Source of the DNA: Planctomycetota bacterium
Lineage (GTDB): Bacteria; Planctomycetota; UBA8742; UBA2392
Reading direction: 5' to 3'
Assembly: GCA_015075515.1 (NCBI GenBank)
Contig: JABTUE010000001.1
Coordinates: 1,013,001 to 1,077,000, forward strand
Length of the DNA: 64,000 bases
A model generated the notes under the pieces. The model had not been told where the DNA came from, ran no database searches, and saw only the letters and a program-made list of their open reading frames with translations. Shown here one piece after another: positions 22,431-42,383 of the stretch (its first letter is position 1; every line of letters begins with the position of its first letter). The position numbers and the translations under genes are program-made.

Positions 22431-22507
22431 GCACCCGTAGCTCAATTGGATAGAGCATCTGACTACGGATCAGAAGGTTGCACGTTCGACTCGTGCCGGG
22501 TGTACCA
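22431..22507 (+). tRNA. tRNA-Arg (anticodon ACG)
   Basis: 77 nt with a cloverleaf: acceptor GCACCCG/CGGGTGT, D-stem GCTC/GAGC, anticodon stem TCTGA/TCAGA with loop CTACGGA, T-stem GCACG/CGTGC with loop TTCGACT, 3' ACCA. A terminator hairpin follows at 22513-22547. Confidence 0.85.
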
Positions 22508-22557
22508 GCCAAAAAGCCGCCTTGGAAGCTACTTCCAAGGCGGCTGACGTTTCTGGC
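22463..22557. repeat. attL-like direct repeat: tRNA-Arg 3' half from the anticodon loop plus about 50 bp downstream including the tRNA terminator hairpin; an imperfect extension continues to about 22630
   Basis: A near-identical copy (few mismatches) lies at 42547-42641. The downstream approximately 70 bp are also similar and contain GGACAAGGTT motifs. Confidence 0.75.
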
Positions 22558-22740: not shown

Positions 22741-25700
22741 TTATCGACCAACAAGCGCCATCCAACAGACCAAGTGAATGTGCTCTTCGTGCAGCACATC
22801 CAGTGGTTTGGGGCGCTCATAGGGCTGCAAGCCAAGCTCCTCGACTACTTCGGCTAGTCGTTTGGCGGCTTCTTGCGGGCTCTCCTCGTGTGACCGTATT
22901 GCTTCCTGAATAGGGCGTTGAATCTTGTGGCCGTGAGGTGCCTGCAAGCGCGCCACGAGGCTTGCCGTGTACTCGGGCGTCCAGTCGGGGGCGGCATGGC
23001 TGCGGACAATGTCGGCCGCTCTCTGCATGGACGGCGGAATTTTTGGTTGAAGGTTTGCGGGGTCGGTCAACTCATTCCACTTTGCCAGAATGTGCTGCCG
23101 AGCTATGCGCCAAGCCTCGTAGGCCTGCTGCCGTAGCGCCTCAGTCAGCGTCGTGGGGGCGTCCTCCGGGCAGCGGATGCGACGCAGGCTGGTCAACACG
23201 CGGTCATCTACCAGCGTTCCGTCAGCGGTGACGAAACGGAACAAAGGTTCCTTGCCCACGCGCGCGCAAAAGAAGAAACCAGAGGGACCCTTGGTCGCCA
23301 GGGCCGAGCCTGCGGTCCAAGGGAAGTCAAGAATCGCAGTCTTGTGCCGCGGGTTCTCCAGCGCCTTGCGGAGTTCCTGCCGGAACTCTTCGCCGCTCTC
23401 CGGCGCTTCCCGCTCTCCGCCCAGTTCAAGCAGCGAAGCGTCGCCCTTCTTGATGCGCTCTAGTTCGTCCTTCACGCCGAGCACCACGTCGCCGGTCTCG
23501 GTTCCGGGCAAAATCTCGGCCTCGACACCGACCGTTCGTGCGGCCACCTTCACCTTGTCCTGGATGCGGTCGTGCAGCCTGAGCAACCGGTCCAGTTCAT
23601 CGTCCGGCAGGAAACAGTAGATGTAGTTGTCTTTGTGCTTGCTGCCAATGCGGTCAATTCGCCCATGGCGCTGTACCAAGCGCATCGGGTTCCAAGGCAG
23701 GTCGTAGTTGATCAAATTCCGGCACTGCTGAAGGTTCATGCCCTCTGCCAGAACGTCCGTCGTAACCAGAATGTCGAACCGGTCATCGCGTTTGTCTGCC
23801 GGTGCGTCCATGGACTCAGGTGCGAAACCGAACACTGCCTCCGTACCTTCGGCACTTGACACCTTGGCGACACGCCCCCGGAAGTGCTTGAGCCTTGCGT
23901 TGGTCGCAAGCTCATTCTCCAGAAAGTCAAAGATCCAGTTCATCGTGTCCGCGAAGTAGGTGAAGATCAGAACCTTGCGGTTGTCGCGCTGCGCTTCCGG
24001 AGTGGTGCCGTCCTTGTCCGCGTGTGCGGCTATCTGCTCCAACGCCTTGACCAATGATTTGAGTTTGGGATCCTGTTCAGCCGTCACTTTCTCTACGCGC
24101 TTGTGGAAGTTGCGCAGAATGGCCAAGTCACACTCTACGGCTTCGCGAAGATCGTTGACCTTGTAGGCGCTGGAGTTCTCCAGATCGCCCTCCCGTTCAA
24201 GCTCGTCCATCGCCTCTTCCGCCTCGTCCGTGTCCGCGGAAGGCAGCTCCAGAACCGCTTCCAGGGCCTTCGTTGTCGCCACCTTGCCTTTGCCAAGCAA
24301 CTGCAGAAATGTCTCGTGGTGGCGGATCATCCTCTGCACGGTCTTGCGAAAAGCCTCGATCGACGATTCAAACCGTTTGAGCATTCCAGAGCGGACCAGA
24401 CCCACCAGAACCACCTCGCTCTGCTCGATGTCGCCGTCTTTGCGAAACGCCGATGGCTGATAGCGCGCCAGGCGCAACTCGGGCTCGCCTTCTTCGGGCA
24501 TCACCCGCCGCTCAAACTCGGCAAAGAAGCCGGGCAGGAGCGCGTCCAGCCTGTAGCCCAGTTTGTCTACATGCGGCTTGGGAAACTCGATCTGGATCTC
24601 GCTGCCGTCGGGCAAGCGGATGCGGTCGTGTGGGTAGTACTTCTTCACGAAGTGCCGCGTGCGGCGCACCACCACGCGGTCCAGCAGTTCGAACAACAGG
24701 TCGGGTGTCAGGTCGTCCGGGTCCGTGCGCGAGGCCTGCTTGAACAGATCGCGCATGCTGCGGATGCCGGCCTCGGCAAAAGCCGCATCCTGCTTGATGA
24801 AGAATTCCAGCAGGTAGTACAGGTCCCACACCGAGTTGTTGACCGGCGTGGCCGTCAGCATCACCAGCCGTTTGGGCGGGTCGCCGCGCAGCAGCTTGCG
24901 CAAGGCCTTGCTGCGGTCGGCGTCGGGGTTGCGCACGCCGTGAGCTTCGTCCACTACCACCATGGCGTAGTCTGAGGCATCTACGTCGCGCTTGCCCTGT
25001 GCAATCTCTTCGAAACTGCGCACTTCCACCCGCAGGTCGGTGCGCGCCATGAAGCGCGCCCATGAGCCGTCGCGCAAAGCCGCCGGCGCCACCAGCAGCA
25101 CGCGCTGATGCGACTGGCGGGCATCCTCGATCAGCTTGGCGGCGATGAACGACTTGCCCAGGCCCACGCTGTCGGCGATCAGCACGCCGCCGCGCTGCGC
25201 CAGAATCTTCCGGGCGCGCTCAACGCCGTCGTTCTGGAAGTTGGTCAGGTGGATGCGCGACAGGCCGCCGTGTTCTTCGTTGAGTTGCTCACCGTAGCGC
25301 TCATACAACGCGCGCATGTACACCAGCCAGGGCGAAACCGGCGCGAAACGATCTTCGTACAAGCGCGCCAGGTCAAAGTCTTCAGAGCGCTCCCACAGGT
25401 TGTCGAACCACTGGCGCGCCTTGTTGTAGGGCTCCGTGTCCTTGCGCGAGACGTTGAGTTCAAGGTTCTTGCGCAGGCCGGCGTAGGTGAAGTTGCTGGA
25501 GCCGACGAAGACGCCTTCGCCGTCGGACAAGATAAACGCCTTGGCGTGCAGAAACGGCGGGAACTTGAAGCGGCGCACGCGCAGATTGCCACCGCGTTGC
25601 AGATCTATCAGGCGCTTGACGACGCCCTCGGCCTGGGCATCGAACTCGGTCAGGTTGCGGTCCAGCCGCAAACCCTCTTCCTGCCGCTCCAGTTGCGCCG

Positions 25701-25980
25701 CAAGCTGCTTTTCGAGGGCTTTTTCGCCCTTGGGGCCGCCCAGCTTGACCGGCAACGTGCGGCCTTCAAAGGGCGGCTCGGCACCCAGCAGCAGCCGGAT
25801 GCCGGACAAACGCTCAAGCTCTTCCACCAGCAGCGAAAAGCCGCCCAGGTTGAAGTACCCCGTTGCCACGTCCAGCGACGGCGGCGTCTTGAGCTTGGCC
25901 ACGCTGCCCTGAATGGCGGCCTTGAGCGCCTCCTCCATCGTGCCGTTGTCGAGATTGTCCGCGATGTCCCGCAGCGTCAT
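22741..25980 (-). CDS. Phospholipase-D (HKD) nuclease domain fused to an SNF2-family helicase
   Basis: 1079 aa. The N-terminal HKD motif is FLHAKAFILSDGEGVFVGSSNFTYAGL. The SNF2 core has Walker A LIADSVGLGKS, DEAH box VVVDEAHGVRN, and helicase-C LVTTDVLAEGMNLQQ...QRHGRIDRIG. Confidence 0.85.
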   Translation of the reverse strand: MTLRDIADNLDNGTMEEALKAAIQGSVAKLKTPPSLDVATGYFNLGGFSLLVEELERLSGIRLLLGAEPPFEGRTLPVKLGGPKGEKALEKQLAAQLERQEEGLRLDRNLTEFDAQAEGVVKRLIDLQRGGNLRVRRFKFPPFLHAKAFILSDGEGVFVGSSNFTYAGLRKNLELNVSRKDTEPYNKARQWFDNLWERSEDFDLARLYEDRFAPVSPWLVYMRALYERYGEQLNEEHGGLSRIHLTNFQNDGVERARKILAQRGGVLIADSVGLGKSFIAAKLIEDARQSHQRVLLVAPAALRDGSWARFMARTDLRVEVRSFEEIAQGKRDVDASDYAMVVVDEAHGVRNPDADRSKALRKLLRGDPPKRLVMLTATPVNNSVWDLYYLLEFFIKQDAAFAEAGIRSMRDLFKQASRTDPDDLTPDLLFELLDRVVVRRTRHFVKKYYPHDRIRLPDGSEIQIEFPKPHVDKLGYRLDALLPGFFAEFERRVMPEEGEPELRLARYQPSAFRKDGDIEQSEVVLVGLVRSGMLKRFESSIEAFRKTVQRMIRHHETFLQLLGKGKVATTKALEAVLELPSADTDEAEEAMDELEREGDLENSSAYKVNDLREAVECDLAILRNFHKRVEKVTAEQDPKLKSLVKALEQIAAHADKDGTTPEAQRDNRKVLIFTYFADTMNWIFDFLENELATNARLKHFRGRVAKVSSAEGTEAVFGFAPESMDAPADKRDDRFDILVTTDVLAEGMNLQQCRNLINYDLPWNPMRLVQRHGRIDRIGSKHKDNYIYCFLPDDELDRLLRLHDRIQDKVKVAARTVGVEAEILPGTETGDVVLGVKDELERIKKGDASLLELGGEREAPESGEEFRQELRKALENPRHKTAILDFPWTAGSALATKGPSGFFFCARVGKEPLFRFVTADGTLVDDRVLTSLRRIRCPEDAPTTLTEALRQQAYEAWRIARQHILAKWNELTDPANLQPKIPPSMQRAADIVRSHAAPDWTPEYTASLVARLQAPHGHKIQRPIQEAIRSHEESPQEAAKRLAEVVEELGLQPYERPKPLDVLHEEHIHLVCWMALVGR

Positions 25981-26239
25981 TTACGTTCCCCTTTGACCCA
26001 GGGCCGGATGAACTGGCCTTGATGTCATTTATAGCGACCAGCGCGACATTGAATACCTTGACGCCGTTCCAGGATTGCCTTGGCGGTTTCACCAAAGTTT
26101 TGCTCATCCTGTTTCCGACACTTCGGGATGGAGGTTACGGGCAAAGATTCAACCACTGTCTGGCCCTCGTTGTGCTCCATCGGCCAATCGTGTATGTCGG
26201 CCTCAACTGCTACCATGGAACGAGGCAAAGGAGCATGCG

Positions 26240-27223
26240 GTGGCGCGCTCAGACCTGATTGTGAAACTTGTTCGTGCCGGGGTGGCACGCGATGATGAGC
26301 GCTTTCGAAGGGCGGTTGAGGCCCTGATCGTCGAGGAAGAAGCCCGGCAACACCACACGGTGGCAAAGCAGTTGGCCGAAGCCCTTTCGACGCAAGGCCC
26401 CTCCGTTGCGCAGCTCACCGCTCCCAAGCTTCCGTCAACGGGTCTGGTGTTTGAGCGAGCGCCCCGGCGAACGCTGTCGGAGCTTGTGCTGCCCAAGACT
26501 ACCCGTCAGGCCGTTCAAGAACTCGTGGAAGAGCAGCACCGGGGCGACTTGCTGCGAAACCATGGCCTTGAGCCCCGCCATCGGCTGGTGCTGGTTGGTC
26601 CGCCGGGGAACGGCAAGACGACGCTGGCTGAGGCCATCGCAGATGCACTGCTTGTGCCGCTGCTGATGGTCCGTTACGACGCCATCATCAGCAGCTTCCT
26701 TGGCGAAACCGCCGTTCGCCTGCGCCAGTTGTTCGATCAAGTGCGCACTCGCCCGTGTGTTCTGTTCTTTGACGAGTTCGACGCGCTGGGCAAAGAGCGC
26801 GGCGACGAACACGAAACCGGCGAGATTAAGCGCGTGGTCAACACCCTCCTGATGCAGATTGACGACCTGCCAAGCCATGTTGTCGTCGTCGCCGCGACCA
26901 ATCACCCTGAACTTCTGGACCGTGCCGCTTGGCGTCGCTTTCAGCTTCGCCTGGAGCTTCCGTCGCCGACACAGGCGCAACTTGCGCACTGGTTTCAGAC
27001 GCTTTCGGACCGTCTGGGCCAGCCGCTGGGGCTGGCACCGAGGACACTTGCCGCTAAACTTCCCGGCATAAGTTTCGCAGAAGCGGAAGAGTTTGCGCAG
27101 GATGTTCGCCGCCGCCAGGTGCTTGGCATCCCCGATGCCGATCTCAAGCGGATTGTGAACGATCGGCTGGCAATCTGGACAGCACGCTACATCCAGCGCT
27201 CGAAGTCCAGCACGCGGCGATAA
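26240..27223 (+). CDS. AAA+ ATPase (IetA-like)
   Basis: GTG start at 26240 sits 6 nt after AAGGAG (26228-26233). Walker A is GPPGNGKTTLAEA, Walker B is CVLFFDEFDALG, with sensor-1/arginine-finger context VAATNHPELLDRAAWRRF. The longer ORF from 26075 lacks an in-frame ATG. Confidence 0.75.
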   Translation: MARSDLIVKLVRAGVARDDERFRRAVEALIVEEEARQHHTVAKQLAEALSTQGPSVAQLTAPKLPSTGLVFERAPRRTLSELVLPKTTRQAVQELVEEQHRGDLLRNHGLEPRHRLVLVGPPGNGKTTLAEAIADALLVPLLMVRYDAIISSFLGETAVRLRQLFDQVRTRPCVLFFDEFDALGKERGDEHETGEIKRVVNTLLMQIDDLPSHVVVVAATNHPELLDRAAWRRFQLRLELPSPTQAQLAHWFQTLSDRLGQPLGLAPRTLAAKLPGISFAEAEEFAQDVRRRQVLGIPDADLKRIVNDRLAIWTARYIQRSKSSTRR

Positions 27224-27254
27224 ACAATGGCGCTAACACTGCTGTGGAGTTTCC

Positions 27255-29900
27255 ATGCCGGACGAGCGGCGTCCAGTCCTGCTGTTCCCAAGCGCTTCAA
27301 CCGTAGAGCGCAGGAAGGGAAGCGGTGGTCCATCCAGCTTTCGGTTTCCATCCAGACAACGCCAGCAGGAGCGTTTGTCTGCGACCATGGCGGCCCTGGA
27401 GCGGTCGCTGGAACAGCGAAGCATGCTCCTGTCCGATCATGCCTTGGGCGGCGAGCCCGAAGGTGTGCTGGTGCTGGAGATCGCCGGCAACCTCGACAAG
27501 TTTCATATCGCGGCCAAGGCCGCAGGCATCGAGTGGCTGGGCGAATACGACGAAACAGCCGTAGAGCCGGATGAAGATTTTGCAGTCCAACGTCAACGAC
27601 GAACCCGGCAAACCGATGGCGGATCCATTGGCGACGAAGACGAGCCTGAGGATTCCGGGAATCTCGTCCCGCGCCACGTTTATCTGACCGCCACCAACCA
27701 GCGACGACTGAGGCAGTTTCTTGCCATGTGGGAGCGCTGGCTGCGCAACCAGGACTTTGAGCGAGGCCAGAAGAAGTGGTCGCAGCTCTTCAAGCAGTTG
27801 CGCACGGTCCGGTTCTGGGATGCCGAAGACCGTTTCCGCGCCACAGGCATGCTGGAGGTCTGGCAACGGGCCGTGGATGAGGACCGCGAGCCCGAGCCCT
27901 TTGCCGTGGAACTCTGGTTCCGCGAAGACGAGGCCCAGCGCGACGCAGCCGAGCAGAAGGTTCGCGCTTTCGTCACGGCGTCCGAGGGACAGGTCATCGG
28001 CCGTCCAACGGTGATCCCTGAGATCGCCTATCACGCCCTGATCGTCAGTCTTCCGAAGCAACGAGTTGAAGCCCTGTTGCGCGACCAGGCATCTGTGGTC
28101 TTGGCCAAGTGCGACCAGGTCATGCTGATCCGTCCCACGGGCCAAGTTGTGGGAGGGCCAACGTCAGGGCCGCCGCTTCAGGGTATTCAGAAGCCTGCAT
28201 CCGAGAGCGTCCGGCAGGCAGTCCGACCCAACCCCGATTTGCCGCCGGAGATTGCCATCCTTGACGGCCTGCCGATGGGCAATCACGAGGCGCTCGACGG
28301 CCGCCTGGATATCGATGATCCTGACAACTGGGGCGCAGAGTATCCCGTTCAAGCGCGGACACACGGCACCATGGTTGCCTCGAACGTTATTCACGGAGAC
28401 CTGGGAGCAGCCGGTGCGCCGCTAACCCGCCGCATCTACATCCGCCCGATCATGCGGCCTCGGCCTGGCGGCAGCGACGAGTTCATTCCGCCCGACCTAA
28501 ACGAGATTGACCTTGTGCACGGCGCGGTCACCCGCGCCAAGCAGCGGCACCCCTCGCTCAAGGTCTTTCTGCTTGCGGTCTGCGACCCGGTGCAGGTGTT
28601 TTCCGGCAGGATCAGTCCTTGGGCACGGCTCATCGACTACCTTTCCCACAAACACAACATTCTGTTTGTCATCAGCAGCGGCAACCACACCGGCGCCCTG
28701 CACTATGATGTCGGCACGCAACAGCTTCATGATATGCCGCCCGATCAGCGCGATTTGCTGACCATGACCCATGTGCTTGATGGCGCCATTACGCGCGGCG
28801 TCATGGCGCCCGCCGATTCCATCAACGCCCTCACCGTCGGCGCGGCCAACAACGATTTATCGGATCTGGACAACACGCCGTCCGGCACACTGCTGCCGGT
28901 GACGAACAGAAGCCTCCCTGCACCATACTCCGCGCTGGGCCCCGGTTACCGGCGCGCCGTCAAGCCGGATTTTCTGACCAACGGCGGCCGCAAGCCCTAT
29001 CGGCCAATGCTCCGGAGCTCAACGCAAACGCGGCTTGAGGTGCCGGATAACCTGTCCATCTTCCCGGGCATTGTCACGGCGATTCCGCACCAATCCTTCC
29101 GCTATCGCTTCGAGGCGGGCACGACCTTGGCGGCTGCTCTGACCACACGAAGGCTTGCCCAGGCGCTGGACTATCTGCGCGATCCCCAGTTTGCGGGCCA
29201 GATTCCTGACGAGTTCCTGCCCGTTATCATCAAGGCTTTGGTCGCCCATTCCGCCCGTTGGGATGATGCCGCGCGTCAATCCATTGAAGCCGCTGTGGGC
29301 AACGGCGCAGACTGGCGAGCGCAGAAGGCTGCCGTTACGCGCATGCTGGGCTACGGCTACGTGCCGCCGGAAGGCACTTTCGATTGCGCGCAACATCGCG
29401 CCACGTGCATCGGGCTCGGAACCCTCAAAGTGGACCAAGGGCACGAGTTCCAACTTCCGCTCCCGCCCATACCCGCTGACCCAATGCAACAAATTTGGCG
29501 CAGGTTGACCGTGACCATGGCCTACCTCAGCCCCATCAAGCCGAGGGTTCAGGCATATCGGCAAGTGGTCTGCTGGGCGGATCGCGCCGTGCCGGACGAC
29601 GTAGGTTTCGACTTTAATTCAACGTCAGACGTCGAGGTGCGGGCCGCCCAGCGGGGGACGTTGCAGCATCTGGTCTTCGAGGGCAACTCCGCGCCGGTGC
29701 TTACGGACGGTGACGCCCTGCAACTGATCGTGTCGTCGCGTCCAGGCGCCTATGACGGTATCAGGGCCGACGGCGAAGTATCGACACGCTATGGCCTTGT
29801 CGTCAGCCTCGAAGTTGCCCAGAACATCAACATTTACGACGAAATCCGCGACCGCATTCGCCCGCGGGTGCAGGTCCGGAACCGTCCCCCGTCTCGGTAA
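27255..29900 (+). CDS. Subtilase (peptidase S8)-like protein with a long N-terminal extension (IetS-like); the predicted nucleophile position reads Thr
   Basis: 881 aa. The Asp block is IAILDGLP, the His block HGTMVASNV, the oxyanion-Asn block FVISSGNHTGA, and the Ser block reads GTTLAAA (GTS to GTT). A GGAG lies 5 nt upstream of the ATG. Confidence 0.7.
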   Translation: MPDERRPVLLFPSASTVERRKGSGGPSSFRFPSRQRQQERLSATMAALERSLEQRSMLLSDHALGGEPEGVLVLEIAGNLDKFHIAAKAAGIEWLGEYDETAVEPDEDFAVQRQRRTRQTDGGSIGDEDEPEDSGNLVPRHVYLTATNQRRLRQFLAMWERWLRNQDFERGQKKWSQLFKQLRTVRFWDAEDRFRATGMLEVWQRAVDEDREPEPFAVELWFREDEAQRDAAEQKVRAFVTASEGQVIGRPTVIPEIAYHALIVSLPKQRVEALLRDQASVVLAKCDQVMLIRPTGQVVGGPTSGPPLQGIQKPASESVRQAVRPNPDLPPEIAILDGLPMGNHEALDGRLDIDDPDNWGAEYPVQARTHGTMVASNVIHGDLGAAGAPLTRRIYIRPIMRPRPGGSDEFIPPDLNEIDLVHGAVTRAKQRHPSLKVFLLAVCDPVQVFSGRISPWARLIDYLSHKHNILFVISSGNHTGALHYDVGTQQLHDMPPDQRDLLTMTHVLDGAITRGVMAPADSINALTVGAANNDLSDLDNTPSGTLLPVTNRSLPAPYSALGPGYRRAVKPDFLTNGGRKPYRPMLRSSTQTRLEVPDNLSIFPGIVTAIPHQSFRYRFEAGTTLAAALTTRRLAQALDYLRDPQFAGQIPDEFLPVIIKALVAHSARWDDAARQSIEAAVGNGADWRAQKAAVTRMLGYGYVPPEGTFDCAQHRATCIGLGTLKVDQGHEFQLPLPPIPADPMQQIWRRLTVTMAYLSPIKPRVQAYRQVVCWADRAVPDDVGFDFNSTSDVEVRAAQRGTLQHLVFEGNSAPVLTDGDALQLIVSSRPGAYDGIRADGEVSTRYGLVVSLEVAQNINIYDEIRDRIRPRVQVRNRPPSR

Positions 29901-29952
29901 GCAGCGGGATCGGCGTCATGCACGCTCATCTTCTCCCGGCGGGCGGGTTGGG

Positions 29953-32900
29953 TCATGCTGGGGACTTGAGGCGGCGGTAGTGGGCCAAAACGGGGGTGAG
30001 GCGCTGCTGGTAGGGCTGGCCTTCGATTTTGCCTTCGTGGAAGGTCTCGAAGATGTGGGTCAGGTGTTCTTCCGTCAGGCCGTAGAGCAGGGCGACGGCG
30101 GCGTCGAGCTCGTGGATGTGGCCCTGTCTGGTGCGGTCATCGAGGGTTCCGCAATCCACGCCGACGGCTTGGGCCCAGCCCTGGTAACGGTCATCCACGG
30201 CGGCCAGGCGGCCGGCCAGGGCCACGACACGCTGCCACAGGGGGTGCGTGCGTTCGGGACGCGGGATGGGGAGGGCGTTGAAAATGTGGAAGTTCATGTG
30301 GATTTCGACCCAGCGGCGGGCGAACCAATCCAAAGGGACGGAGCAGAGGACGCCCAGCAGGAAAGCCTGATCCTTCTCGTCACCACGGGGCCAAACCGCG
30401 TAAGGCGCTGCGTTGACAATAACCGCTTCCGGCGGGACCAGTGCGGCAATCACGGTGCGGTTATTCGTGCGGTTCGTGACATCGCGAAAGGCGATACGCG
30501 GGTGCAGGGCCGGAAGTGTCTTTTTGTCCTTCACCCACGCCGCGGGCATCTCACTGAAGGCCGAGGCGCTGTTACGGGCCGCGCGTGCGCGCTTGTCTTG
30601 CAGGTAAGCGTAAACCTTTTTCGGGTTCGCCCAGGCGTAGTAGCTGCTTTCGCCCCGGTCGGGCTGCCAGATGTCAAAACTGCCGCCGGTGAAGACGGGG
30701 ATATGCCCCTTGGGGCGCCTTTCGACAAACTTGCCGAGCGCCGGGCCTTTCTTGACTTCGTTGGTGGCGTCCATTTCACGTTGCGGCCGCGCGCGCCAGG
30801 CCTTCTTGTCGTCCAAGTCCAGGCGCGGCGCCTTGCGCAGTTGCAGAAAGGGCTCCAGCGAATCGTCGCTGGGCAACAGCGGAAACGCCGCTGTTTCCGT
30901 CCAGGTCAGAAACTCGGCGACGGGCACGGCGGGGGGCTCGCCGGCTGTGCCGGCGCGGAAGCGCTCCAGTGAGCTGTAAGGCCCGCGAAAGCGCACGACT
31001 GTGCCCGGCGCGCGCCGCAGGACGGAAAGTGCGACGGTGTACTGCGGATGCACGTCGGGAAAGAACCAGTTGCGATTGTTCAGCAGGAACGTCAGTTCTT
31101 CCACGGCGCCGTCGGCCAAGACGGCTTTGCGGAACTCCTCACTGCCGCCGCTGCACCAGACACTGCGCGGCACGACCACGCCAAGCCGGCCTTCAGGTCG
31201 GCATAACCGCCAGAATCGCCAACAAAAGCCTTTGTAAAGGTCGGGGTCGCCCGTGCCCATACCGGGGAACGCGCCGGAAGTGAGGATGACGCGCATGGCT
31301 TCGGCTGATTCCTGTTCGGCCTCGAAGCGCTTAACCAAGTCGGGGCGTTCTCCGCGGAGCTTCTCCGCCTGCTTCTTCTGTTGGGCCGCACTCAAACCGT
31401 TCATGCCCGGTTGATAGCGCACCCAGAACTTGAGTTCCTCGATGGTGGCTTCTTCCCACGGCGGGTTGCCGAGGATCACGTCAAAGCCGGGGTTGTCGCC
31501 GAAAAACACTTCGGGGAAGGCTGCCGGGAAGTGCAGGACATGCAGGCCCTCAAGGGCCTTCAGGGCCTGTTTGTGCAGCTTGCTGCCGGGGATGGCCGCG
31601 TCGCCCTTGCCCAGCAGCAGCGACAGCTCGCCGCCCTCGACGGCCTGTTGGCAGCCTTCGTCCAGGCGCGCGGCGGTCAGCACGTCAAAGATGGCCGTGG
31701 CCGGGGCCAGCTTTTGCTGGATTTGCTCATCAAGCCGTTTCGCCTGGGCGATGTCCTGCACGCTGCTGTCCGTAAGCGCCCGCAACTTCTCAAGGTCGCC
31801 GGCCACAAGCTTGAGGTACTTTTTGAGTTCACCGGTAAAGCCGAAACCGCCATCCTTGAGCAGCTCTTCGGCTTCCGCGACGCGCTCAATGCCCGCCAGG
31901 CTGTTGCCGTGGCGCAGGGTGCGGTCCAGAAACGAAAGGGGCAGGCCGGGCACGAAGGTGTGAATCCACAGGGCCAGGCGCGACAGCTCAACGGCGGTGC
32001 GGTTGTAATCGACGCCGTAGATGCAGCGGCGGGCGATCATGCGGCGCAGAAGCTGGCTGCCGTCCACGCGGCGCTGCACGCCGACCTGGGCCAGGCCGGC
32101 TTCGGCGGCTTTGCGCAGGCTTTCCAGCTCGGCCTTGACGGCGGGCAGGGGCCGTCGCTCAAGGTAGCGTGACATGCCGGCTTCGATGAAATCCACGGCG
32201 GAGACGAGAAAGTGGCCGCTGCCCATGGCGATGTCGGAGACGCGGAAGTCAAAGAAGCGTTTGCCGGCCTCGGCTTCGGGCAGTGTGTCGAGACGCTGGA
32301 AGTGTTCTTCGAGGGCGGGGTTGAGGGCCCCGCGCAGCAGGTGGGCGACGGCGAACTCGGGTGTGTAATAGCTGCCGCTGGCCTTGCGGGCGCCGGAAGC
32401 GTTGTGCAGGTAGAAGTCGCCCTTGGCGACAATGACGGCGTCGGTTTTCTTGCTTACGGGGCGATAACGGCCCTCGGCGTCGCTTGTTAAATCTTCTTCG
32501 GCCTGGCCGAGTTCCGAGAGCAGCAGGCCTTCGTAGATGGTGCCGAACTCGCGCACGCCAATGGCGCTGAAGTCAACGGGGCCGGGGATGCCGTCGCGGG
32601 TGTCATCCACGAGCAGGGTGGAGAGTGCGGCGCGAAAGACGCTGTCGGGCAGCTCGACGCTGTCGATGACTTGGCCTTCAGGGCGGGTCTTGTCGAACAA
32701 GCCGCCGTTGTAGGCGGGGACAGACAGCGCCTTGTCGCCTTCGCGGATGGCGTGAAAGACGCGCTGGACATCTTTCCAGGTGCCGGTGCCGGCGTCCTTG
32801 TGGTAGGTGGCGTTCTTGAGGCGTTCCTCGACCAGGTCCTGGGCGAGGCCCTTGATTGACTTCTTGCGGTAAGCCTGGCTTTCGAGGTAGGGCAGCAGGT

Positions 32901-34005
32901 CTTTGTCTTCGGCGTAGGCAACAAACAGCAGGCGGAACAGCAGCACCAGCGCGGCGTCGTAGGTCTCGCGCAACTGCCCGGCGTTCATGCGCTTGAGGCC
33001 GCGGGCAGCGGCCAGGCCTTGGGCGAGTCTGGGGATGACGGCGGTGTAAATGCGGTCGCGCAGCTTGACGCGGACATCGACGGCAAAGCGTGAGGATTCA
33101 TTGAGGATGTAATCCACCGTGCCGTCGGGGCGCAGGGCCTCGGCGCTGAACAGCAGCCACAGGAAGGGCTGGTGCTGTTCTTCGATCAGGGCCAGGTTGA
33201 TCTCGGCGAAGGTTTCCGTGCGGCCTTTGCTTGCGACCGGGCGTTCGCCATCGGTGGAGTACAGGCGCAGCTTGTCGCCCTGCATGGTGACGACCCAGGG
33301 GCAGCCGTTGTCCTGGGCCTTGTTCAGGGCGTAGGCGGCGGGGCTGAGGTCGGCAAAGCGGGTTGCCGGGCGGTCCGGCATTTCGTCTTCACGAACGAGT
33401 ACGGCGACGGCCTGCTTGCGGCCGCCGGTCTTGAGCAACAGGTAGTTTTGGTTGGTTTCCTCGATTTCAAAGCCGAGGCCTTGGAGCAACTGGCGCTCGC
33501 GCAGGTTGACGACGGCAGCGGCCCTTTGGCTGGCGGGTGTGTAGTGGGCGGTGCCGCTGACGCGCTCGTGCAGGTAGTGGCTGGAAAACATGCCCTCGTT
33601 GCGCAGGCCGGGGACAGCGGAGACCATCTGGGGCAGGGCTTCACGGACGAACTTGACGGCGGCTTCGTTGTTGGGCTGATTCAGGAATTCGCGGCAGACG
33701 GTTTGGGCGCGTTCCACGGGCAGATCGAAGTAGATGGGCGGGTGGCCTGTGTTGTGGGTGATGACGGGGCCGCACAGGGTGACGTAGCTGCCGTGCAAGA
33801 AGACGGCGAGCACGGGCACGGCGCGGCCTTTCTCGCGCTCCTTCCAGCATTCGCGCACGGCGGCCTGTGTGGGGCGGCGGTTGAACTGGAAGACGGCGAC
33901 CTCGGCGGCGGATTTGTCCGTGAGGAAGTACTCGACTGGTTTGCAGCCTTCCGGCAGCTTGCCCTGGGTGAGGGGGCGAGGTTCGAGATCGTCAAGGAAT
34001 GCCAT
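29953..34005 (-). CDS. Large (1350 aa) gamma-class N6-adenine DNA methyltransferase of the Eco57I / BREX-PglX / DISARM-DrmMI type with a C-terminal target-recognition region
   Basis: Motifs are GSYYTPEFAV (motif X-like), DIAMGSGHFLV (motif I, SAM), and VILGNPPWEE (motif IV, NPPW). The N-terminal roughly 450 aa are unassigned. A GGAG lies upstream of the ATG at 34005. Confidence 0.85.
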   Translation of the reverse strand: MAFLDDLEPRPLTQGKLPEGCKPVEYFLTDKSAAEVAVFQFNRRPTQAAVRECWKEREKGRAVPVLAVFLHGSYVTLCGPVITHNTGHPPIYFDLPVERAQTVCREFLNQPNNEAAVKFVREALPQMVSAVPGLRNEGMFSSHYLHERVSGTAHYTPASQRAAAVVNLRERQLLQGLGFEIEETNQNYLLLKTGGRKQAVAVLVREDEMPDRPATRFADLSPAAYALNKAQDNGCPWVVTMQGDKLRLYSTDGERPVASKGRTETFAEINLALIEEQHQPFLWLLFSAEALRPDGTVDYILNESSRFAVDVRVKLRDRIYTAVIPRLAQGLAAARGLKRMNAGQLRETYDAALVLLFRLLFVAYAEDKDLLPYLESQAYRKKSIKGLAQDLVEERLKNATYHKDAGTGTWKDVQRVFHAIREGDKALSVPAYNGGLFDKTRPEGQVIDSVELPDSVFRAALSTLLVDDTRDGIPGPVDFSAIGVREFGTIYEGLLLSELGQAEEDLTSDAEGRYRPVSKKTDAVIVAKGDFYLHNASGARKASGSYYTPEFAVAHLLRGALNPALEEHFQRLDTLPEAEAGKRFFDFRVSDIAMGSGHFLVSAVDFIEAGMSRYLERRPLPAVKAELESLRKAAEAGLAQVGVQRRVDGSQLLRRMIARRCIYGVDYNRTAVELSRLALWIHTFVPGLPLSFLDRTLRHGNSLAGIERVAEAEELLKDGGFGFTGELKKYLKLVAGDLEKLRALTDSSVQDIAQAKRLDEQIQQKLAPATAIFDVLTAARLDEGCQQAVEGGELSLLLGKGDAAIPGSKLHKQALKALEGLHVLHFPAAFPEVFFGDNPGFDVILGNPPWEEATIEELKFWVRYQPGMNGLSAAQQKKQAEKLRGERPDLVKRFEAEQESAEAMRVILTSGAFPGMGTGDPDLYKGFCWRFWRLCRPEGRLGVVVPRSVWCSGGSEEFRKAVLADGAVEELTFLLNNRNWFFPDVHPQYTVALSVLRRAPGTVVRFRGPYSSLERFRAGTAGEPPAVPVAEFLTWTETAAFPLLPSDDSLEPFLQLRKAPRLDLDDKKAWRARPQREMDATNEVKKGPALGKFVERRPKGHIPVFTGGSFDIWQPDRGESSYYAWANPKKVYAYLQDKRARAARNSASAFSEMPAAWVKDKKTLPALHPRIAFRDVTNRTNNRTVIAALVPPEAVIVNAAPYAVWPRGDEKDQAFLLGVLCSVPLDWFARRWVEIHMNFHIFNALPIPRPERTHPLWQRVVALAGRLAAVDDRYQGWAQAVGVDCGTLDDRTRQGHIHELDAAVALLYGLTEEHLTHIFETFHEGKIEGQPYQQRLTPVLAHYRRLKSPA

Positions 34006-34255: not shown

Positions 34256-34726
34256 TCAGGCCTTGTGGGACTTCAGGGAGCCTTCGGAGGGGGTCTGGCC
34301 TTTCTTGCCCCAGTAGCCAAGCACCTTGTCCAGCAGGAGCTTCAGGCGTTCGCCCCGGAATGACGCCTTGGCCTTGGCGTCTTTGGGGTGCGGGCGCGGG
34401 TAGATGAACTTGGCGTCCACGACGGTCAGCAAGCCCACGTGCAGGTAGGTCGGATACTTGATGATGTCGGCTTCGCCCAGCTTGATGTATTCGGGCGTGG
34501 GGACTTCCTTGCCGCTGGCGTGCGGGAAGCGCGAAAGCGGGCAGAGTGCCCAGCCGTCGTTGCGTTGCTCAACAACCATCAACAGGTGGCCGGTGTCCTG
34601 ACAGCCCTGCGGAATGTTGCCGTCTTTGCAGAGTTGCTCGCCCGTGCAGTCCATCGTCGCCAGCACGGCGTCGTTGTACGCCTTGTCAGGCTTAACGCGA
34701 ACCACCATGCCCGGCTCAATGGACAT
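34256..34726 (-). CDS. Hypothetical protein (island cargo)
   Basis: 156 aa with non-repetitive composition and several Cys (CTGEQLCKDGNIPQGCQD). No recognised domain. Confidence 0.5.
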   Translation of the reverse strand: MSIEPGMVVRVKPDKAYNDAVLATMDCTGEQLCKDGNIPQGCQDTGHLLMVVEQRNDGWALCPLSRFPHASGKEVPTPEYIKLGEADIIKYPTYLHVGLLTVVDAKFIYPRPHPKDAKAKASFRGERLKLLLDKVLGYWGKKGQTPSEGSLKSHKA

Positions 34727-34734
34727 TCACGTTC

Positions 34735-35361
34735 CTACCGGCCTTTGGACGGATTGGCCGCCAGTTCGTTGATCAGCGTGTTTTCCAGCTTCTCAAGACC
34801 GTCGGCCAGGCGCGCCATCGTGCCGGGCACCGGCTCCGGCGCGCCGTGTTCAAGGCGGCTGCGAAGGTCCGAAATCTTCTTGCGCGCTTCGCCGATGGCC
34901 GGCATGGCGTCGCCAAGGGCTTTCATCATGTCAGCGATCAGCGCATCAAACGACGTGTTCACGACCGTTTGCGTTCCCGACTTGGCGTTCTTGGTGCTGG
35001 CGTGGCCAAGGTCCGTGACTGCCTTCCACAGGCCGGCCCACTCCAGGACGTGCGGTCGGGCAATGTTGGCCATGTAGTCGGCCAAGCGCTGATCTACGAA
35101 CGCAGCATCAGCCTTCATTGCTTCGTGCAGGTTCTTGAAGCCGTATGCCGCCACGCCCCGCATGGTGGCGACCAGCGCCAGCAGGAACCAGCCGAACTCG
35201 TTGAAAGTCAGCGCAACGACGTACTGCCCGACTTCTTCGTCTTTCAGTTCGGGCATGAACAGCTTGGGGAAGGGCTTGGGCTTACCTTGCAAGGCCGCTG
35301 CAAGCTCTGCCTGCGCGTGCTTCTTGGCGGTTGGAACGTCAAAGCCAGCTAGACCGGGCAT
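34735..35361 (-). CDS. Hypothetical protein (island cargo)
   Basis: 208 aa, largely alpha-helical. No recognised domain. Confidence 0.5.
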   Translation of the reverse strand: MPGLAGFDVPTAKKHAQAELAAALQGKPKPFPKLFMPELKDEEVGQYVVALTFNEFGWFLLALVATMRGVAAYGFKNLHEAMKADAAFVDQRLADYMANIARPHVLEWAGLWKAVTDLGHASTKNAKSGTQTVVNTSFDALIADMMKALGDAMPAIGEARKKISDLRSRLEHGAPEPVPGTMARLADGLEKLENTLINELAANPSKGR

Positions 35362-39640: not shown

Positions 39641-39643
39641 GGC

Positions 39644-41012: not shown

Positions 41013-42383
41013 TCAGGCGCGGTTCAGCTTCAACAGGCGGCCCGCGCGGCCGGTACGCGCTGAAATCCAGCCTTCCAGGGCGGGCTTGATTCCCAACAGT
41101 TCCTCCACAGTCGCGGCGCTGGCCTGCTTGCGCGGCAGCGCGAAGTGGCCGGCGTAGTGCTTGACCAGAACCGCGTAGTCGTGGCCCAGTTCGCCGGCCA
41201 CGACGTACAGGTTCAGCCCAAGGCCGGAGTTGGCAAGGTACGTCGCGCAGGTTGAGCGGAAGTCCTTGGGCTTCCACTTGAAGTCCGTCGCCCCTTGGAC
41301 GGCCTTGATGGCGGCCTTCAGGCTGCGCCCCACAACGGTTTCCGCGTCGTCGTCGTCATCGTCGTCGGGCAAGACGTGGCGCTTGTCGCCAATCGCCAGG
41401 GGCAGCGCCCCGCCGAAGACGTAAGGCTCGGCCTTGGGGTCGGCCGCGCCCGCCATCGTTTGCAGCATCTTGCGCAGCGCAGGCCGGGAGGTCAGCGGCA
41501 CGACCCGTTGCCGGCGCGTCTTGGCACCGTAGATCAGCAGCCGGTCGCCGTCGAAATCAACCCACGACTCCGGCGCGTCGGGCGCGGACGGCTTCCAGCG
41601 CAGGCGTTCGGCTTCACCGCGACGGCAGCCCGTGACCATCAGAAATGCCAGCAAGGGGAACAACTCGCTGTCAGGGCGCTCTTCGTCGTGCGTCGCGGCT
41701 GCTTCCAGTATCCCCCGCAGGTTGGCGGAAGTCAGGGTAACGGGTTTGACTTCCACGCGACCCACGGACAGTCCCTCGTTGATGGCTTCGGCGTCCAAGC
41801 GCACGCATGACAGCCGCCTGCGCCCGAAGTTCAGCATGGCCTTGAAGTGGCGGGCGATGCCAGCGACGGAATGGGGCGACAGCGCCGCGCCGGTGCGGCT
41901 GTTGGGTTGGTTTCGCACATGCTCAACAAATCCCTCCAGGTCGCCGACGGTCAAGTCGTGTGGCCGGGCCGGCCGGCCGCGCCAGGACTCAAGAAACGGC
42001 CAGCACTGGCGGTAGCCGATCAAGGTCTTGGGCGAGCGGTCCTTGGCGGTCAGGTGCTTGGCGTGTTGCTCTAGCAGTTGCAGCCATGTCGCGTCACGGT
42101 CAACAGGCTTGGCGCCGTCGGCCAGTTGCTGCCGTTCTTTGGCCAGTTCGCGCGACTTGGCGACGGCGAACGGCCGGGCCGCTTCCCGCGACGAAAGAGG
42201 CAGGCCGTCGTGGCCGGCAAGAACCAGTTTGCGGCGTGCTCCCACCCTGCCTTGTGGCGCCGGATCACGCCAGCGCAGCGCGACAACAGTCTGTCCGCCG
42301 CGCCTCTCGGTTGAAATGGTGACGCCGGGGTGCTCGCTTCGCGACCTTTTGCTGTAGCCCTTGCGTGTGCGTTTGCGTGCCAT
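41013..42383 (-). CDS. Tyrosine-type site-specific integrase
   Basis: ATG at 42383; the longer ORF to 42662 would run into the att repeat and is rejected. The C-terminal catalytic region is RSTCATYL...LGHDYAVLVKHYAGH. It has an N-terminal core-binding/SAM-like domain and lies adjacent to attR. Confidence 0.85.
   Translation of the reverse strand: MARKRTRKGYSKRSRSEHPGVTISTERRGGQTVVALRWRDPAPQGRVGARRKLVLAGHDGLPLSSREAARPFAVAKSRELAKERQQLADGAKPVDRDATWLQLLEQHAKHLTAKDRSPKTLIGYRQCWPFLESWRGRPARPHDLTVGDLEGFVEHVRNQPNSRTGAALSPHSVAGIARHFKAMLNFGRRRLSCVRLDAEAINEGLSVGRVEVKPVTLTSANLRGILEAAATHDEERPDSELFPLLAFLMVTGCRRGEAERLRWKPSAPDAPESWVDFDGDRLLIYGAKTRRQRVVPLTSRPALRKMLQTMAGAADPKAEPYVFGGALPLAIGDKRHVLPDDDDDDDAETVVGRSLKAAIKAVQGATDFKWKPKDFRSTCATYLANSGLGLNLYVVAGELGHDYAVLVKHYAGHFALPRKQASAATVEELLGIKPALEGWISARTGRAGRLLKLNRA

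What the first reader, a model, noticed from the sequence alone, without database searches (positions are those of the whole stretch)
22741..34005. Candidate undescribed restriction-like system: PLD(HKD) nuclease-SNF2 helicase fusion paired with a 1350-aa PglX/DrmMI-type N6-adenine methyltransferase
One 1079-aa protein joins an N-terminal HKD phospholipase-D nuclease motif to a complete SNF2 ATPase core (GLGKS, DEAH, helicase-C). On the same island, on the same strand, sits a giant gamma-class adenine MTase (YYTP / GSGHFL / NPPW) with a long C-terminal specificity region. SNF2 (DrmD), PLD (DrmC) and the large MTase (DrmMI) are class-1 DISARM parts, and PglX is the BREX MTase. But no DrmA/DrmB (DUF1998 pair), PglZ, BrxC or BrxL homolog is present in the island. 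A helicase-nuclease fusion plus MTase alone would be a minimal ATP-dependent modification-restriction-like module. That architecture does not match canonical DISARM, BREX or Type I/III R-M.
Basis: partly seen in the sequence, partly recalled or inferred. Interest (0 to 1): 0.85.

Follow-up and report, generated by a model that had tools for sequence, protein, structure and literature searches.

The report
Two-gene methylase plus helicase-nuclease restriction module
A large DNA adenine methylase and a helicase fused to a nuclease form a conserved two-gene, restriction-like phage-defence module that has no name yet; here a second defence system (IetAS) sits between the two genes, on a 20-kb mobile island.

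Summary
Gene 22741-25980(-) encodes a 1079-aa protein with one HKD/PLD nuclease motif and a complete SNF2 ATPase. Gene 29953-34005(-) encodes a 1350-aa gamma-class N6-adenine methylase. The 4 kb between the genes is a complete IetA/IetS defence system on the opposite strand. Everything sits in a 20.1-kb island bounded by 50-nt repeats at tRNA-Arg, with an integrase. The methylase matches a REBASE-derived 'Type IIG' model end to end, not PglX.

The two genes are a real unit. In 80 species-representative loci, the methylase lies next to the helicase-nuclease in 44 of 46 loci with enough flank. The two exceptions have broken helicase genes. No third gene is conserved, and no DrmA/DrmB, PglZ/BrxC or DUF499 appears. 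The junction between the genes is an insertion hotspot for other defence genes.

The methylase N-terminus has a restriction-endonuclease-like fold without the catalytic motif, so cleavage probably depends on the partner.

Verdict: an unnamed two-gene variant of the known SNF2-plus-methylase, ATP-dependent restriction-like systems. Function is inferred, not tested.

The parts
22431..22507 (+). tRNA-Arg (ACG), the integration site of the island
   Evidence: ARAGORN
22462..22511 (.). Left attachment repeat: a 50-nt exact direct repeat covering the 3' half of the tRNA. Identity stays at 91% over 100 nt.
   Evidence: Alignment and exact-match extension
22741..25980 (-). PLD(HKD)-SNF2 helicase-nuclease, 1079 aa, the predicted restriction subunit
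   Evidence: Pfam PLDc_2, SNF2-rel_dom and Helicase_C. PADLOC C3a139 'HKD+Snf2' 8.9e-58 and DrmD 8e-46. More than 2469 homologs, full length at 46-50% identity.
25393..25608 (-). Core of the single HKD/PLD motif (residues 125-196; H145, K147, GSSN 160-163)
   Evidence: Pfam, invariant columns, only one HxK motif in the domain
23644..25251 (-). SNF2 ATPase core (residues 244-779): Walker A GLGKS 273-277, DEAH 344-347, motif VI QRHGR 770-774
   Evidence: Pfam, invariant columns, PDB sequence hits to ISWI, RapA and CHD cores
22744..23493 (-). Family-specific C-terminal domain (residues 830-1079): a small beta-sheet plus a helical bundle, role unknown. It is a candidate interface with the methylase (inference).
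25981..26239 (.). Divergent intergenic region between the PLD-SNF2 start and the IetA start. Any promoter for PLD-SNF2 in this window must lie here.
   Evidence: Sequence read directly, with GTG 26240 preceded by AAGGAG. No sigma-70 consensus match.
26240..27223 (+). IetA AAA+ ATPase, nested cargo and not part of the pair
   Evidence: PADLOC IetA 5.8e-145 over 2-325 of 330. Pfam AAA 4.3e-33. NCBIfam IteA 236 bits, below the cutoff of 510.
27255..29900 (+). IetS S8 subtilase-like protein, nested cargo
   Evidence: PADLOC IetS 3.6e-251 over 1-851 of 855. Pfam Peptidase_S8 7.8e-15.
29953..34005 (-). Methylase of 1350 aa, the predicted modification and target-recognition subunit
   Evidence: PADLOC REase_MTase_IIG PDLC03620 2.8e-283, end to end. 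Pfam Eco57I and N6_Mtase. More than 3292 homologs.
33001..34005 (-). N-terminal restriction-endonuclease-like fold (residues 1-335) without a conserved D...(D/E)xK motif
31444..32406 (-). Gamma-class N6-adenine methylase catalytic core (residues 534-854): motif X SGSYYTP, motif I MGSGHFL, motif IV NPPW
   Evidence: Pfam, PADLOC DrmMI 1.9e-70 over 522-851, invariant columns
29956..31443 (-). C-terminal region (residues 855-1350), the presumed target-recognition part
   Evidence: NCBIfam Alw26I-family hit at 1160-1248 and PADLOC MTase_II hit at 1169-1241. Conservation is uniform, with no hypervariable block.
34256..35361 (-). Two small genes (208 aa and 156 aa) just upstream of the methylase. 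They may be a clade-specific accessory pair or further cargo.
   Evidence: No family hit in any library. A weakly similar pair lies between the methylase and the helicase in the closest relatives, L081 and L085.
41013..42383 (-). Tyrosine integrase of the island
   Evidence: Pfam Phage_integrase 3.9e-10. PHROG 1 integrase 1.7e-26.
42546..42595 (.). Right attachment repeat, a copy of the tRNA-Arg 3' half

Best explanation
The two genes encode a self-contained, two-subunit, ATP-dependent restriction-modification-like defence system.

Subunit 1 is the 1350-aa protein. It recognises a DNA target and methylates adenine (N6) on host DNA. Its N-terminal restriction-endonuclease-like domain has lost the catalytic motif and most likely serves as a docking or communication domain.

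Subunit 2 is the 1079-aa protein. It supplies what subunit 1 lacks: an SNF2 double-strand DNA translocase and one HKD/PLD nuclease half-site. On unmethylated foreign DNA the methylase subunit would recruit or license the motor, which translocates at the cost of ATP. PLD nucleases build one active site from two HKD motifs (established for Nuc and BfiI), so cutting should need two subunits to meet, by dimerisation or by collision of two translocating complexes, as in Type I and Type ISP enzymes.

Shown here:
- Domain content and conservation of the catalytic residues.
- Obligatory pairing and co-evolution of the two genes.
- Absence of any third conserved gene.
- Location on a mobile island, with other defence genes nested inside the pair.

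Inferred:
- Physical interaction of the two proteins.
- Dependence on methylation status.
- Translocation-coupled cleavage.
- Anti-phage activity.

In this window IetAS has been inserted, on the opposite strand, into the junction between the two genes. That junction is a recurrent insertion hotspot in this family.
For: Pairing:
- In 46 loci with at least 4.5 kb on both sides of the PLD-SNF2 gene, 43 carry the large methylase by ORF clustering, and a 44th (L015) by tblastn. The two remaining loci have a truncated (L048) or interrupted (L056) helicase gene.
- The methylase is usually directly upstream on the same strand, with a gap of 9-180 nt in about 30 loci.
- In a distant subfamily (26-31% identity) the order is reversed, with overlapping stop and start codons (L058, L072, L076, L078, L079).
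- The pair occurs in many bacterial phyla and in archaea (Halorubrum pHLAC01, Halalkalicoccus, Nitrososphaera), on plasmids, and on three IMG/VR contigs.

Co-evolution: identity to the window's two proteins is correlated across 38 full-length pairs (Spearman 0.69, p = 1.4e-6).

No third partner: ORF clustering over 80 loci gives only these two conserved families.

Catalytic residues of nuclease, ATPase and methylase are invariant.

Defence context:
- The gap between the two genes holds IetAS here. Elsewhere it holds SIR2+HerA, HEC-01A/B, a GmrSD-like enzyme, PDC-M41B, ImmA+DUF4411, Uma2, Fic, AlbA_2/HATPase_c_4 or an NgoFVII-like PLD.
- The same nesting is documented for Hma and other multi-gene defence systems (PMC11232893; Payne et al. 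preprint 10.1101/2024.01.29.577857).

Precedents:
- The HKD-Snf2 fusion plus N6-methylase is proposed as a restriction-like effector pair in Type-2 BREX-related systems (PMC12839542).
- MmeI-like methylases without a nuclease motif, flanked by helicases, were proposed to be Type I-like systems (PMC2731913).
Against: - No experiment exists on any member of this family that I could find.
- The nearest tested analogue of the idea argues for caution. B. subtilis DnmA/YeeA with YeeB and YeeC methylates DNA but did not restrict plasmid transformation (PMC7261158).
- In this window the opposite-strand IetAS insertion separates the two genes, and no promoter could be identified for the PLD-SNF2 gene. 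This copy could be poorly expressed.
- The C-terminal 'specificity' region of the methylase is as conserved as the rest among 25 homologs. That is unusual for systems that diversify their targets.
- The N-terminal domain keeps invariant E35, E208 and E264, so a non-canonical nuclease site cannot be excluded.
- The C-terminal domain of the helicase-nuclease gave no informative fold match, so the proposed interface is a guess.
Confidence: 0.64

Rival explanations
1. The 1350-aa protein is a self-sufficient Type IIG/IIL enzyme, with nuclease, methylase and specificity in one chain, as its best HMM says. The PLD-SNF2 protein would then be a separate or auxiliary effector, for example a back-up or modification-dependent nuclease like SauUSI, that merely travels with it.
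For: - The PADLOC 'Type IIG restriction enzyme-methyltransferase' model matches end to end at 2.8e-283.
- The N-terminus has a restriction-endonuclease-like fold resembling BpuSI and DrdV.
- E35, E208 and E264 are invariant.
- Auxiliary nucleases beside BREX-type cores are described (PMC12839542).
Against: - No invariant Asp or Lys in residues 1-340 of 32 sequences, so the PD-(D/E)xK triad seen in MmeI and BpuSI is missing.
- The partner is present in essentially every intact locus, in two gene orders, and co-evolves with the methylase.
- Morgan et al. found no endonuclease activity in two MmeI homologs that lack the motif.
Confidence: 0.13
2. The pair modifies DNA but does not restrict by cleavage. 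It would be either a BREX-like block of phage replication or an epigenetic or regulatory methylase with a remodelling partner, as suggested for B. subtilis DnmA.
For: - DnmA/YeeA with YeeB and YeeC shows methylation and promoter effects but no restriction of transformation.
- BREX uses a related methylase without detectable cleavage (established knowledge).
- The specificity region is uniformly conserved.
Against: - The HKD residues H145, K147 and GSSN are invariant across the family, which argues for a working nuclease.
- The pair sits on mobile islands and plasmids and hosts nested defence genes.
- It is patchy across phyla, like defence genes rather than housekeeping regulators.
Confidence: 0.1
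3. In this particular window the module is a disabled relic. The IetAS insertion uncoupled the genes, and only IetAS, and perhaps the methylase, still works.
For: - IetAS lies on the opposite strand between the genes, so co-transcription is impossible.
- No promoter-like site was found in 25981-26239.
Against: - Both ORFs are full length against their families (99-100% coverage), with all catalytic residues intact.
- About 25 other loci also carry cargo in the gap, so the family tolerates separation.
- The promoter scan covers only the sigma-70 consensus.
Confidence: 0.1
4. The pair is a remnant of a class 1 DISARM, BREX or DUF499-type (Hma/BR) locus whose other genes were lost or lie elsewhere.
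For: DrmD, DrmC and DrmMI are the best named relatives of the three catalytic modules. Weak hits to HmaA and BrxHII also appear.
Against: - No DrmA/DrmB, PglZ, BrxC/BrxL or DUF499-like protein occurs in the island or the rest of the window.
- No third conserved family occurs in 80 related loci.
- NCBIfam scores are far below cutoffs: DrmD 197 against 610, PglX 25 against 500, the PLD anti-phage protein 146 against 1100.
Confidence: 0.03

Closest known systems
Type-2 BREX-related (BR) systems, also called Hma-type or DUF499-centred systems (Rakesh and Krishnan, NAR 2026, PMC12839542). I recall the same set as the 'restriction-like' system of Gao et al. 2020, but that rests on memory.
   Same: The effector has the same architecture, an N-terminal HKD nuclease fused to a Swi2/Snf2 helicase. 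It is paired with an N6-adenine methylase and proposed to work as a restriction-like system. Its locus is also a hotspot for nested defence genes (PMC11232893; Payne et al. preprint).
   Different: Those systems are defined by a DUF499 AAA+ ATPase and, for Type 2, a DUF3780 protein. Neither occurs here or in 80 related loci. The methylase here is a 1350-aa Eco57I/Type IIG-like protein with an N-terminal endonuclease-like fold. Sequence similarity of the helicase is weak: HmaA 5.9e-25, PLD_Helicase 1.9e-23, NF042964 146 bits against a cutoff of 1100.
Class 1 DISARM (DrmD, DrmMI, DrmA, DrmB, DrmC)
   Same: The best named relatives of all three catalytic modules are DISARM parts: DrmD for the SNF2 core, DrmC for the PLD domain and DrmMI for the methylase core. 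The SNF2 and methylase genes are adjacent, as drmD and drmMI are in class 1 DISARM, where the order is drmD then drmMI (from memory, not checked here).
   Different: DrmA and DrmB, the defining pair, are absent from the window and from all related loci. PLD and SNF2 are fused in one chain. All scores are far below family cutoffs.
MmeI-type Type IIL/IIG enzymes and their nuclease-less relatives flanked by helicases (YeeA/DnmA-YeeB-YeeC; Morgan et al. 2009, Nye et al. 2020)
   Same: A large gamma-class methylase carries specificity in the same chain. A subgroup lacks the N-terminal catalytic motif and is invariably next to a helicase, and was proposed to be Type I-like. The likely logic is the same: the methylase subunit gives specificity and another protein gives motor and nuclease.
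   Different: In the YeeABC group the motor (DEAD-type helicase) and the nuclease (GIY-YIG motifs) are separate proteins. Here a single SNF2 protein carries a PLD nuclease. No sequence comparison with YeeA, YeeB or YeeC could be made with the tools available.
Type ISP (LlaGI/LlaBIII) and Type III restriction enzymes
   Same: ATP-driven motor, nuclease, methylase and specificity act together on asymmetric sites. Type III also has a two-gene layout (Mod plus Res).
   Different: Type ISP is a single chain with an Mrr-type nuclease. Type III Res has a different SF2 helicase family with a PD-(D/E)xK nuclease, and Mod is a beta-class methylase. Here the motor is SNF2 and the nuclease is PLD.
ARMADA and Type 3 BREX (BrxHII/RapA-like SNF2 helicase plus PglX-like methylase gene pair; PMC12458937)
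   Same: They share the recurring 'SNF2 helicase next to a large adenine methylase' gene pair.
   Different: Those systems need a YprA-like helicase (ARMADA) or PglZ/BrxC (BREX), and their SNF2 protein carries no PLD domain.

Membership tests
Class 1 DISARM | DrmA (YprA-like DEAD helicase) and DrmB (DUF1998) present in the locus | tested here: not met
   No such hit among the island proteins or other large ORFs of the window. No third conserved family in 80 related loci.
Class 1 DISARM | DrmD, DrmC and DrmMI at family-level score | tested here: not met
   NCBIfam DrmD 196.8 bits against a cutoff of 610, and DrmC_I 27.9 against 133. PADLOC DrmMI covers only residues 522-851 of 1350.
BREX | PglZ and BrxC present; PglX at family-level score | tested here: not met
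   No PglZ or BrxC hit. NCBIfam BREX-1 PglX 25 bits against a cutoff of 500.
Type IIG/IIL restriction-modification enzyme | Full-length similarity to a catalogued Type IIG family | tested here: met
   PADLOC PDLC03620, 2.8e-283, residues 36-1347 against 43-1373 of 1378
Type IIG/IIL restriction-modification enzyme | Catalytic PD-(D/E)xK (or other) nuclease motif in the same chain | tested here: not met
   The endonuclease-like fold is present, but there is no invariant D or K in residues 1-340 of 32 homologs. A non-canonical site is not excluded.
Type IIG/IIL restriction-modification enzyme | Acts alone, with no obligatory partner gene | tested here: not met
   The PLD-SNF2 partner is adjacent in 44 of 46 informative loci.
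Type-2 BREX-related / Hma | N-terminal HKD fused to a Swi2/Snf2 helicase, next to an N6-methylase | tested here: met
   Pfam architecture. Definition from PMC12839542.
Type-2 BREX-related / Hma | DUF499 AAA+ ATPase and DUF3780 protein in the locus | tested here: not met
   No Pfam or PADLOC hit of that kind. No third conserved gene in related loci. HmaA hit only 5.9e-25.
Type III restriction-modification | Res subunit with a Type III helicase plus PD-(D/E)xK nuclease; beta-class Mod | tested here: not met
   Only a 57-residue ResIII match around Walker A. The core is SNF2 and the nuclease is PLD. The methylase motif order X-I-IV is gamma-class.
IetAS (the nested cargo) | Adjacent IetA AAA+ ATPase and IetS S8 peptidase | tested here: met
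   PADLOC IetA 5.8e-145 and IetS 3.6e-251, both end to end. The NCBIfam equivalogs stay below cutoff, 236 against 510 and 58 against 900, so this is a divergent subfamily.
YeeA/DnmA-YeeB-YeeC type I-like system | Sequence relationship to YeeA, YeeB and YeeC | not tested
Only the published description was used.

The most novel reading that the evidence does not exclude
This is a widespread, unnamed class of two-subunit ATP-dependent restriction-modification enzyme found in bacteria and archaea. It amounts to a Type ISP-like machine split into a methylase-specificity subunit, with a dead endonuclease fold used as a coupling domain, and an SNF2 translocase whose single HKD half-site makes cleavage depend on two motors meeting. 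Its inter-gene junction acts as a docking site where other defence systems are repeatedly inserted.
Probability: 0.4. Interest if true: 0.65.

Novelty: new variant of a known kind. Interest (0 to 1): 0.55.

Why it matters
If the pair works as proposed, current annotation is wrong or empty for many genomes. PADLOC-type tools would call the methylase a stand-alone Type IIG enzyme, and RefSeq calls the two proteins 'hypothetical protein' and 'helicase-related protein'. The methylase N-terminal domain alone defines 638 clusters at 50% identity.

The pair would be the smallest member of the group of defence systems built on an SNF2 helicase next to a large adenine methylase (DISARM class 1, ARMADA, BREX-3, Hma/BR). 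With only two proteins, it offers a simple model for how such a methylase hands unmethylated DNA to a motor-nuclease.

The junction between the two genes could also be used for 'guilt by embedding' searches for new defence genes. It already holds IetAS, SIR2-HerA, HEC-01, GmrSD-like genes and several unknowns.

Tried and rejected
- PDB sequence searches with the methylase found nothing useful. The single sequence gave no hit, and the 25-sequence profile gave nothing below E = 0.01.
- A search for a 'Rosetta-stone' fusion of the methylase N-terminal domain with a helicase or PLD found none. In the top 150 of 638 representatives, all full-length proteins are about 1300-1430 aa.
- Promoter and terminator scans around the IetAS insertion gave no usable signal.
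- PHROGs, Pfam, NCBIfam and PADLOC scans of the remaining island genes (34256-40943) gave no hits.
- Source names of homologs are only 'hypothetical protein' or 'helicase-related protein'.
- Ten full-text literature searches found no paper that names or tests the two-gene pair. The library is incomplete, so this is not proof of absence.
- The Halorubrum lacusprofundi paper mentions defence genes on pHLAC01 but not this pair.
- Readings rejected: a DISARM or BREX remnant; PglX membership; chance adjacency of two cargo genes.

Full report
**1. What is in the window.**
The window is GC-rich, about 67%. Third-position GC picks out two long minus-strand genes at exactly the coordinates given: 22741-25980 (1079 aa) and 29953-34005 (1350 aa).

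The first protein has, in order:
- a PLD-like domain (Pfam PLDc_2, residues 125-196);
- a ResIII/Walker A stretch;
- an SNF2-related domain (312-451);
- Helicase_C (664-779).

It carries only one HxK motif, at H145.

The second protein has Eco57I and N6_Mtase matches. It shows the gamma-class motif order SGSYYTP, then MGSGHFL, then NPPW.

**2.
The 4 kb between the two genes is not empty. On the plus strand lie IetA (26240-27223) and IetS (27255-29900). The IetA start is probably GTG 26240, with AAGGAG 8 nt upstream. Both match PADLOC models end to end, at 5.8e-145 and 3.6e-251. They stay below the NCBIfam equivalog cutoffs.

The whole region is an integrated element:
- tRNA-Arg at 22431-22507;
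- a 50-nt exact repeat of its 3' half at 22462-22511 and again at 42546-42595, with 91% identity over 100 nt;
- a tyrosine integrase at 41013-42383 next to the right repeat.

The element spans 20,134 bp. Its flanks are ordinary host genes: UvrD/PcrA, a ROK kinase and a response-regulator kinase on the left, and formate-dehydrogenase-like and Nuo51-like genes on the right. The other island genes (34256-40943) match no family in four libraries.

**3. Family assignments.**
For the methylase, the best model by far is PADLOC REase_MTase_IIG PDLC03620 (2.8e-283, full length). DrmMI models match the catalytic core only (1.9e-70, residues 522-851). PglX models are marginal, 2e-05 in PADLOC and 25 bits against a cutoff of 500 in NCBIfam.

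For the helicase-nuclease, the best models are:
- PADLOC C3a139 'HKD+Snf2' (8.9e-58), then DrmD (8e-46);
- NCBIfam DrmD, 197 bits against a cutoff of 610;
- the 'phospholipase D-like anti-phage protein' NF042964, 146 bits against 1100;
- the PLD part hits DrmC at 3.2e-11.

No DrmA, DrmB, PglZ, BrxC, BrxL or DUF499-type protein is found in the island or in any other large ORF scanned in the window.

**4. Are the two genes a unit?**
Both families are large. More than 2469 relatives of the helicase-nuclease and more than 3292 relatives of the methylase reach E below 1e-10, typically at full length and 46-50% identity.

A scan of one genome per GTDB species gave 80 loci, each with up to 10 kb of flank on each side. 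tblastn with the window methylase finds a full-length relative (31-48% identity) immediately upstream on the same strand in nearly every locus that has upstream DNA.

Clustering all ORFs of at least 120 aa in these loci gives only two widely conserved families, the helicase-nuclease (75 loci) and the large methylase (66 loci). The other recurrent clusters are antisense shadow ORFs inside these two genes, or sporadic neighbours present in 8 loci or fewer.

Of 46 loci with at least 4.5 kb on both sides, 43 carry the methylase by clustering and a 44th (L015) by tblastn. The last two have a truncated (L048) or interrupted (L056) helicase gene.

In the most distant branch (26-31% identity) the order is reversed, with the methylase gene overlapping the helicase stop codon (L058, L072, L076, L078, L079).

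Identity to the window's two proteins is correlated across 38 full-length pairs (Spearman 0.69, p = 1.4e-6).

The pair also occurs:
- on plasmids of cultured organisms, where RefSeq calls the proteins 'hypothetical protein' and 'helicase-related protein'. The neighbouring methylase was confirmed on two of these plasmids, Halorubrum lacusprofundi pHLAC01 and Rhodococcus erythropolis pCRE138. For Mycobacterium gallinarum, Euzebya pacifica and Halalkalicoccus only the helicase-nuclease hit was examined;
- on three IMG/VR contigs, each with the methylase upstream.

The pair is not a fragment of a larger DISARM or BREX locus.

**5. The junction is an insertion hotspot.**
The distance from the methylase stop to the helicase start is 9-180 nt in about 30 loci and 0.36-6 kb in about 25. 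The inserted genes are diverse, and many are known or candidate defence genes:

| Locus | Cargo in the gap |
|---|---|
| L035 | SIR2 + HerA (7e-166 and 2e-260), plus an ImmA/IrrE-type gene |
| L042 | HEC-01A / HEC-01B |
| L081 | GmrSD-like enzyme |
| L051 | PDC-M41B |
| L023, L043 | ImmA/IrrE + DUF4411 |
| L045, L050 | Uma2 |
| L001 | Fic |
| L002, L015, L032 | AlbA_2 / HATPase_c_4 |
| L074 | NgoFVII-like PLD |

The two closest relatives of the window pair (83% and 76% identity) carry different cargo at the same place. None of the other loci has IetAS there. IetAS in the window is therefore one more insertion into a recurrent hotspot.

The same behaviour is published for Hma loci and for other multi-gene defence systems (PMC11232893; preprint 10.1101/2024.01.29.577857).

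**6. Does the methylase have its own nuclease?**
- then Hjc, Kpn2I and EcoR124I HsdR.

The fold is thus endonuclease-like. However, the 32-sequence alignment has no invariant Asp or Lys in this region. The invariant polar residues are E35, W54, R57, R61, E208, R247, E264 and T265. The strand where (D/E)xK is expected reads V-I-x-x-Q-G. The canonical catalytic triad is missing, although a non-canonical site cannot be excluded.

This matches the class that Morgan et al. 2009 described: MmeI homologs without the nuclease motif, inactive as endonucleases, and always next to a helicase (PMC2731913).

**7. Mechanism proposed.**
Shown: an intact methylase, an intact SNF2 ATPase and an intact single HKD motif, all invariant across the family, and obligatory pairing of the genes.

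Established knowledge: PLD-family nucleases such as Nuc and BfiI form one active site from two HKD motifs, and SNF2 proteins translocate on double-stranded DNA.

Inferred: the methylase subunit reads a target and its methylation state and licenses the motor-nuclease. Cleavage needs two HKD domains to meet, through dimerisation or collision of translocating complexes, as in Type I and Type ISP enzymes.

The family-specific C-terminal domain of the helicase-nuclease (residues 830-1079) and the dead endonuclease fold of the methylase are the obvious candidates for the contact. The C-terminal domain gave no informative fold match.

**8. Caveats.**
- No member of this family has been tested, as far as ten full-text searches show.
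- B. subtilis DnmA-YeeB-YeeC, the closest tested analogue of the idea, methylates DNA but did not restrict transformation (PMC7261158).
- In this window IetAS is on the opposite strand. The helicase-nuclease gene therefore needs its own promoter in 25981-26239, and none was recognisable.
- The methylase shows no hypervariable specificity block among 25 homologs.

**9. Comparison with known systems.**
The HKD-Snf2 fusion next to an N6-methylase is the stated effector arrangement of Type-2 BREX-related (Hma-type) systems. Those are defined by a DUF499 ATPase and DUF3780, both absent here (PMC12839542).

An SNF2 helicase next to a large adenine methylase is also shared by class 1 DISARM, ARMADA and BREX-3, each of which needs further core genes (PMC12458937).

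HKD-SF2 helicase fusions are likewise the restriction component of PbeABCD-type systems (PMC10853773).

The present pair is best described as the minimal, two-gene member of this group. It carries a Type IIG-like methylase chain. It is catalogued piecemeal ('Type IIG', 'HKD+Snf2') but, within the library searched, is not recognised as a system.

**10. Verdict.**
- Observation: confirmed.
- Interpretation: partly supported. The pair is real and is not DISARM or BREX. It is not PglX-type, it is not wholly undescribed, and it is split by IetAS in this window.
- Novelty: new variant of a known kind.
- Interest: 0.55. The family is widespread and untested and offers a simple model system, but its logic would not surprise a specialist in restriction-modification.

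Noticed in passing
window 26240-29900 (+): A complete IetA/IetS defence system lies between the two genes of the finding, on the opposite strand. It matches PADLOC IetA and IetS models end to end but falls below the NCBIfam equivalog cutoffs, so it is a divergent subfamily.
   Followed up: yes
window 22462-42595: A 20.1-kb integrated element at tRNA-Arg, bounded by 50-nt exact direct repeats (22462-22511 and 42546-42595), with a tyrosine integrase at 41013-42383. All the defence genes are its cargo.
   Followed up: yes
window 34256-35361 (-); L081 6743-7951; L085 4824-5992: Two small genes (208 aa and 156 aa) with no family hits sit just upstream of the methylase. A weakly similar pair (E = 6e-07 and 0.01) sits between the methylase and the helicase in the two closest relatives. 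It could be a clade-specific accessory pair or further cargo.
   Followed up: partly
window about 29150-29200 (IetS, motif EAGTTLAAA): Where S8 peptidases normally have G-T-S-x-A-x-P with the catalytic serine, this IetS reads G-T-T-L-A-A-A, with Thr in place of Ser. This was read by eye. No PDB sequence match was available to confirm the alignment.
   Followed up: partly
window 36782-39640 (-) and 36426-36785 (-): A 952-aa protein and an adjoining Cys-rich 119-aa protein in the island have no match in Pfam, NCBIfam, PADLOC or PHROGs. They may be replication or mobilisation functions of the element.
   Followed up: partly
methylase residues 855-1350 (window 29956-31443): The presumed specificity region is as conserved as the catalytic core among 25 homologs at about 50% identity. 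The only poorly conserved blocks are residues 391-420 and 781-810. This is unusual for restriction-type methylases that diversify their targets.
   Followed up: partly
L058, L072, L076, L078, L079: In a distant branch of the family (26-31% identity) the gene order is reversed. The helicase-nuclease comes first and the methylase gene overlaps its stop codon.
   Followed up: partly
L033 15365-18871; L037 17475-20909: Two Microbacteriaceae loci carry a second gene of the PLD-SNF2 family a few kb from the first.
   Followed up: no
window 20964-22259 (-) and 47722-49977 (+): A response-regulator/Ser-Thr kinase fusion and a kinase-TPR protein flank the island. Both hit PADLOC PD-T4-6 models strongly, but this looks like generic kinase-domain similarity in host genes outside the attachment repeats.
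   Followed up: no
window 7288-9381 (-), 52450-54597 (+), 55609-57795 (+): Three long, coding-like ORFs (about 700 aa each) outside the island have no Pfam or PADLOC match.
   Followed up: no
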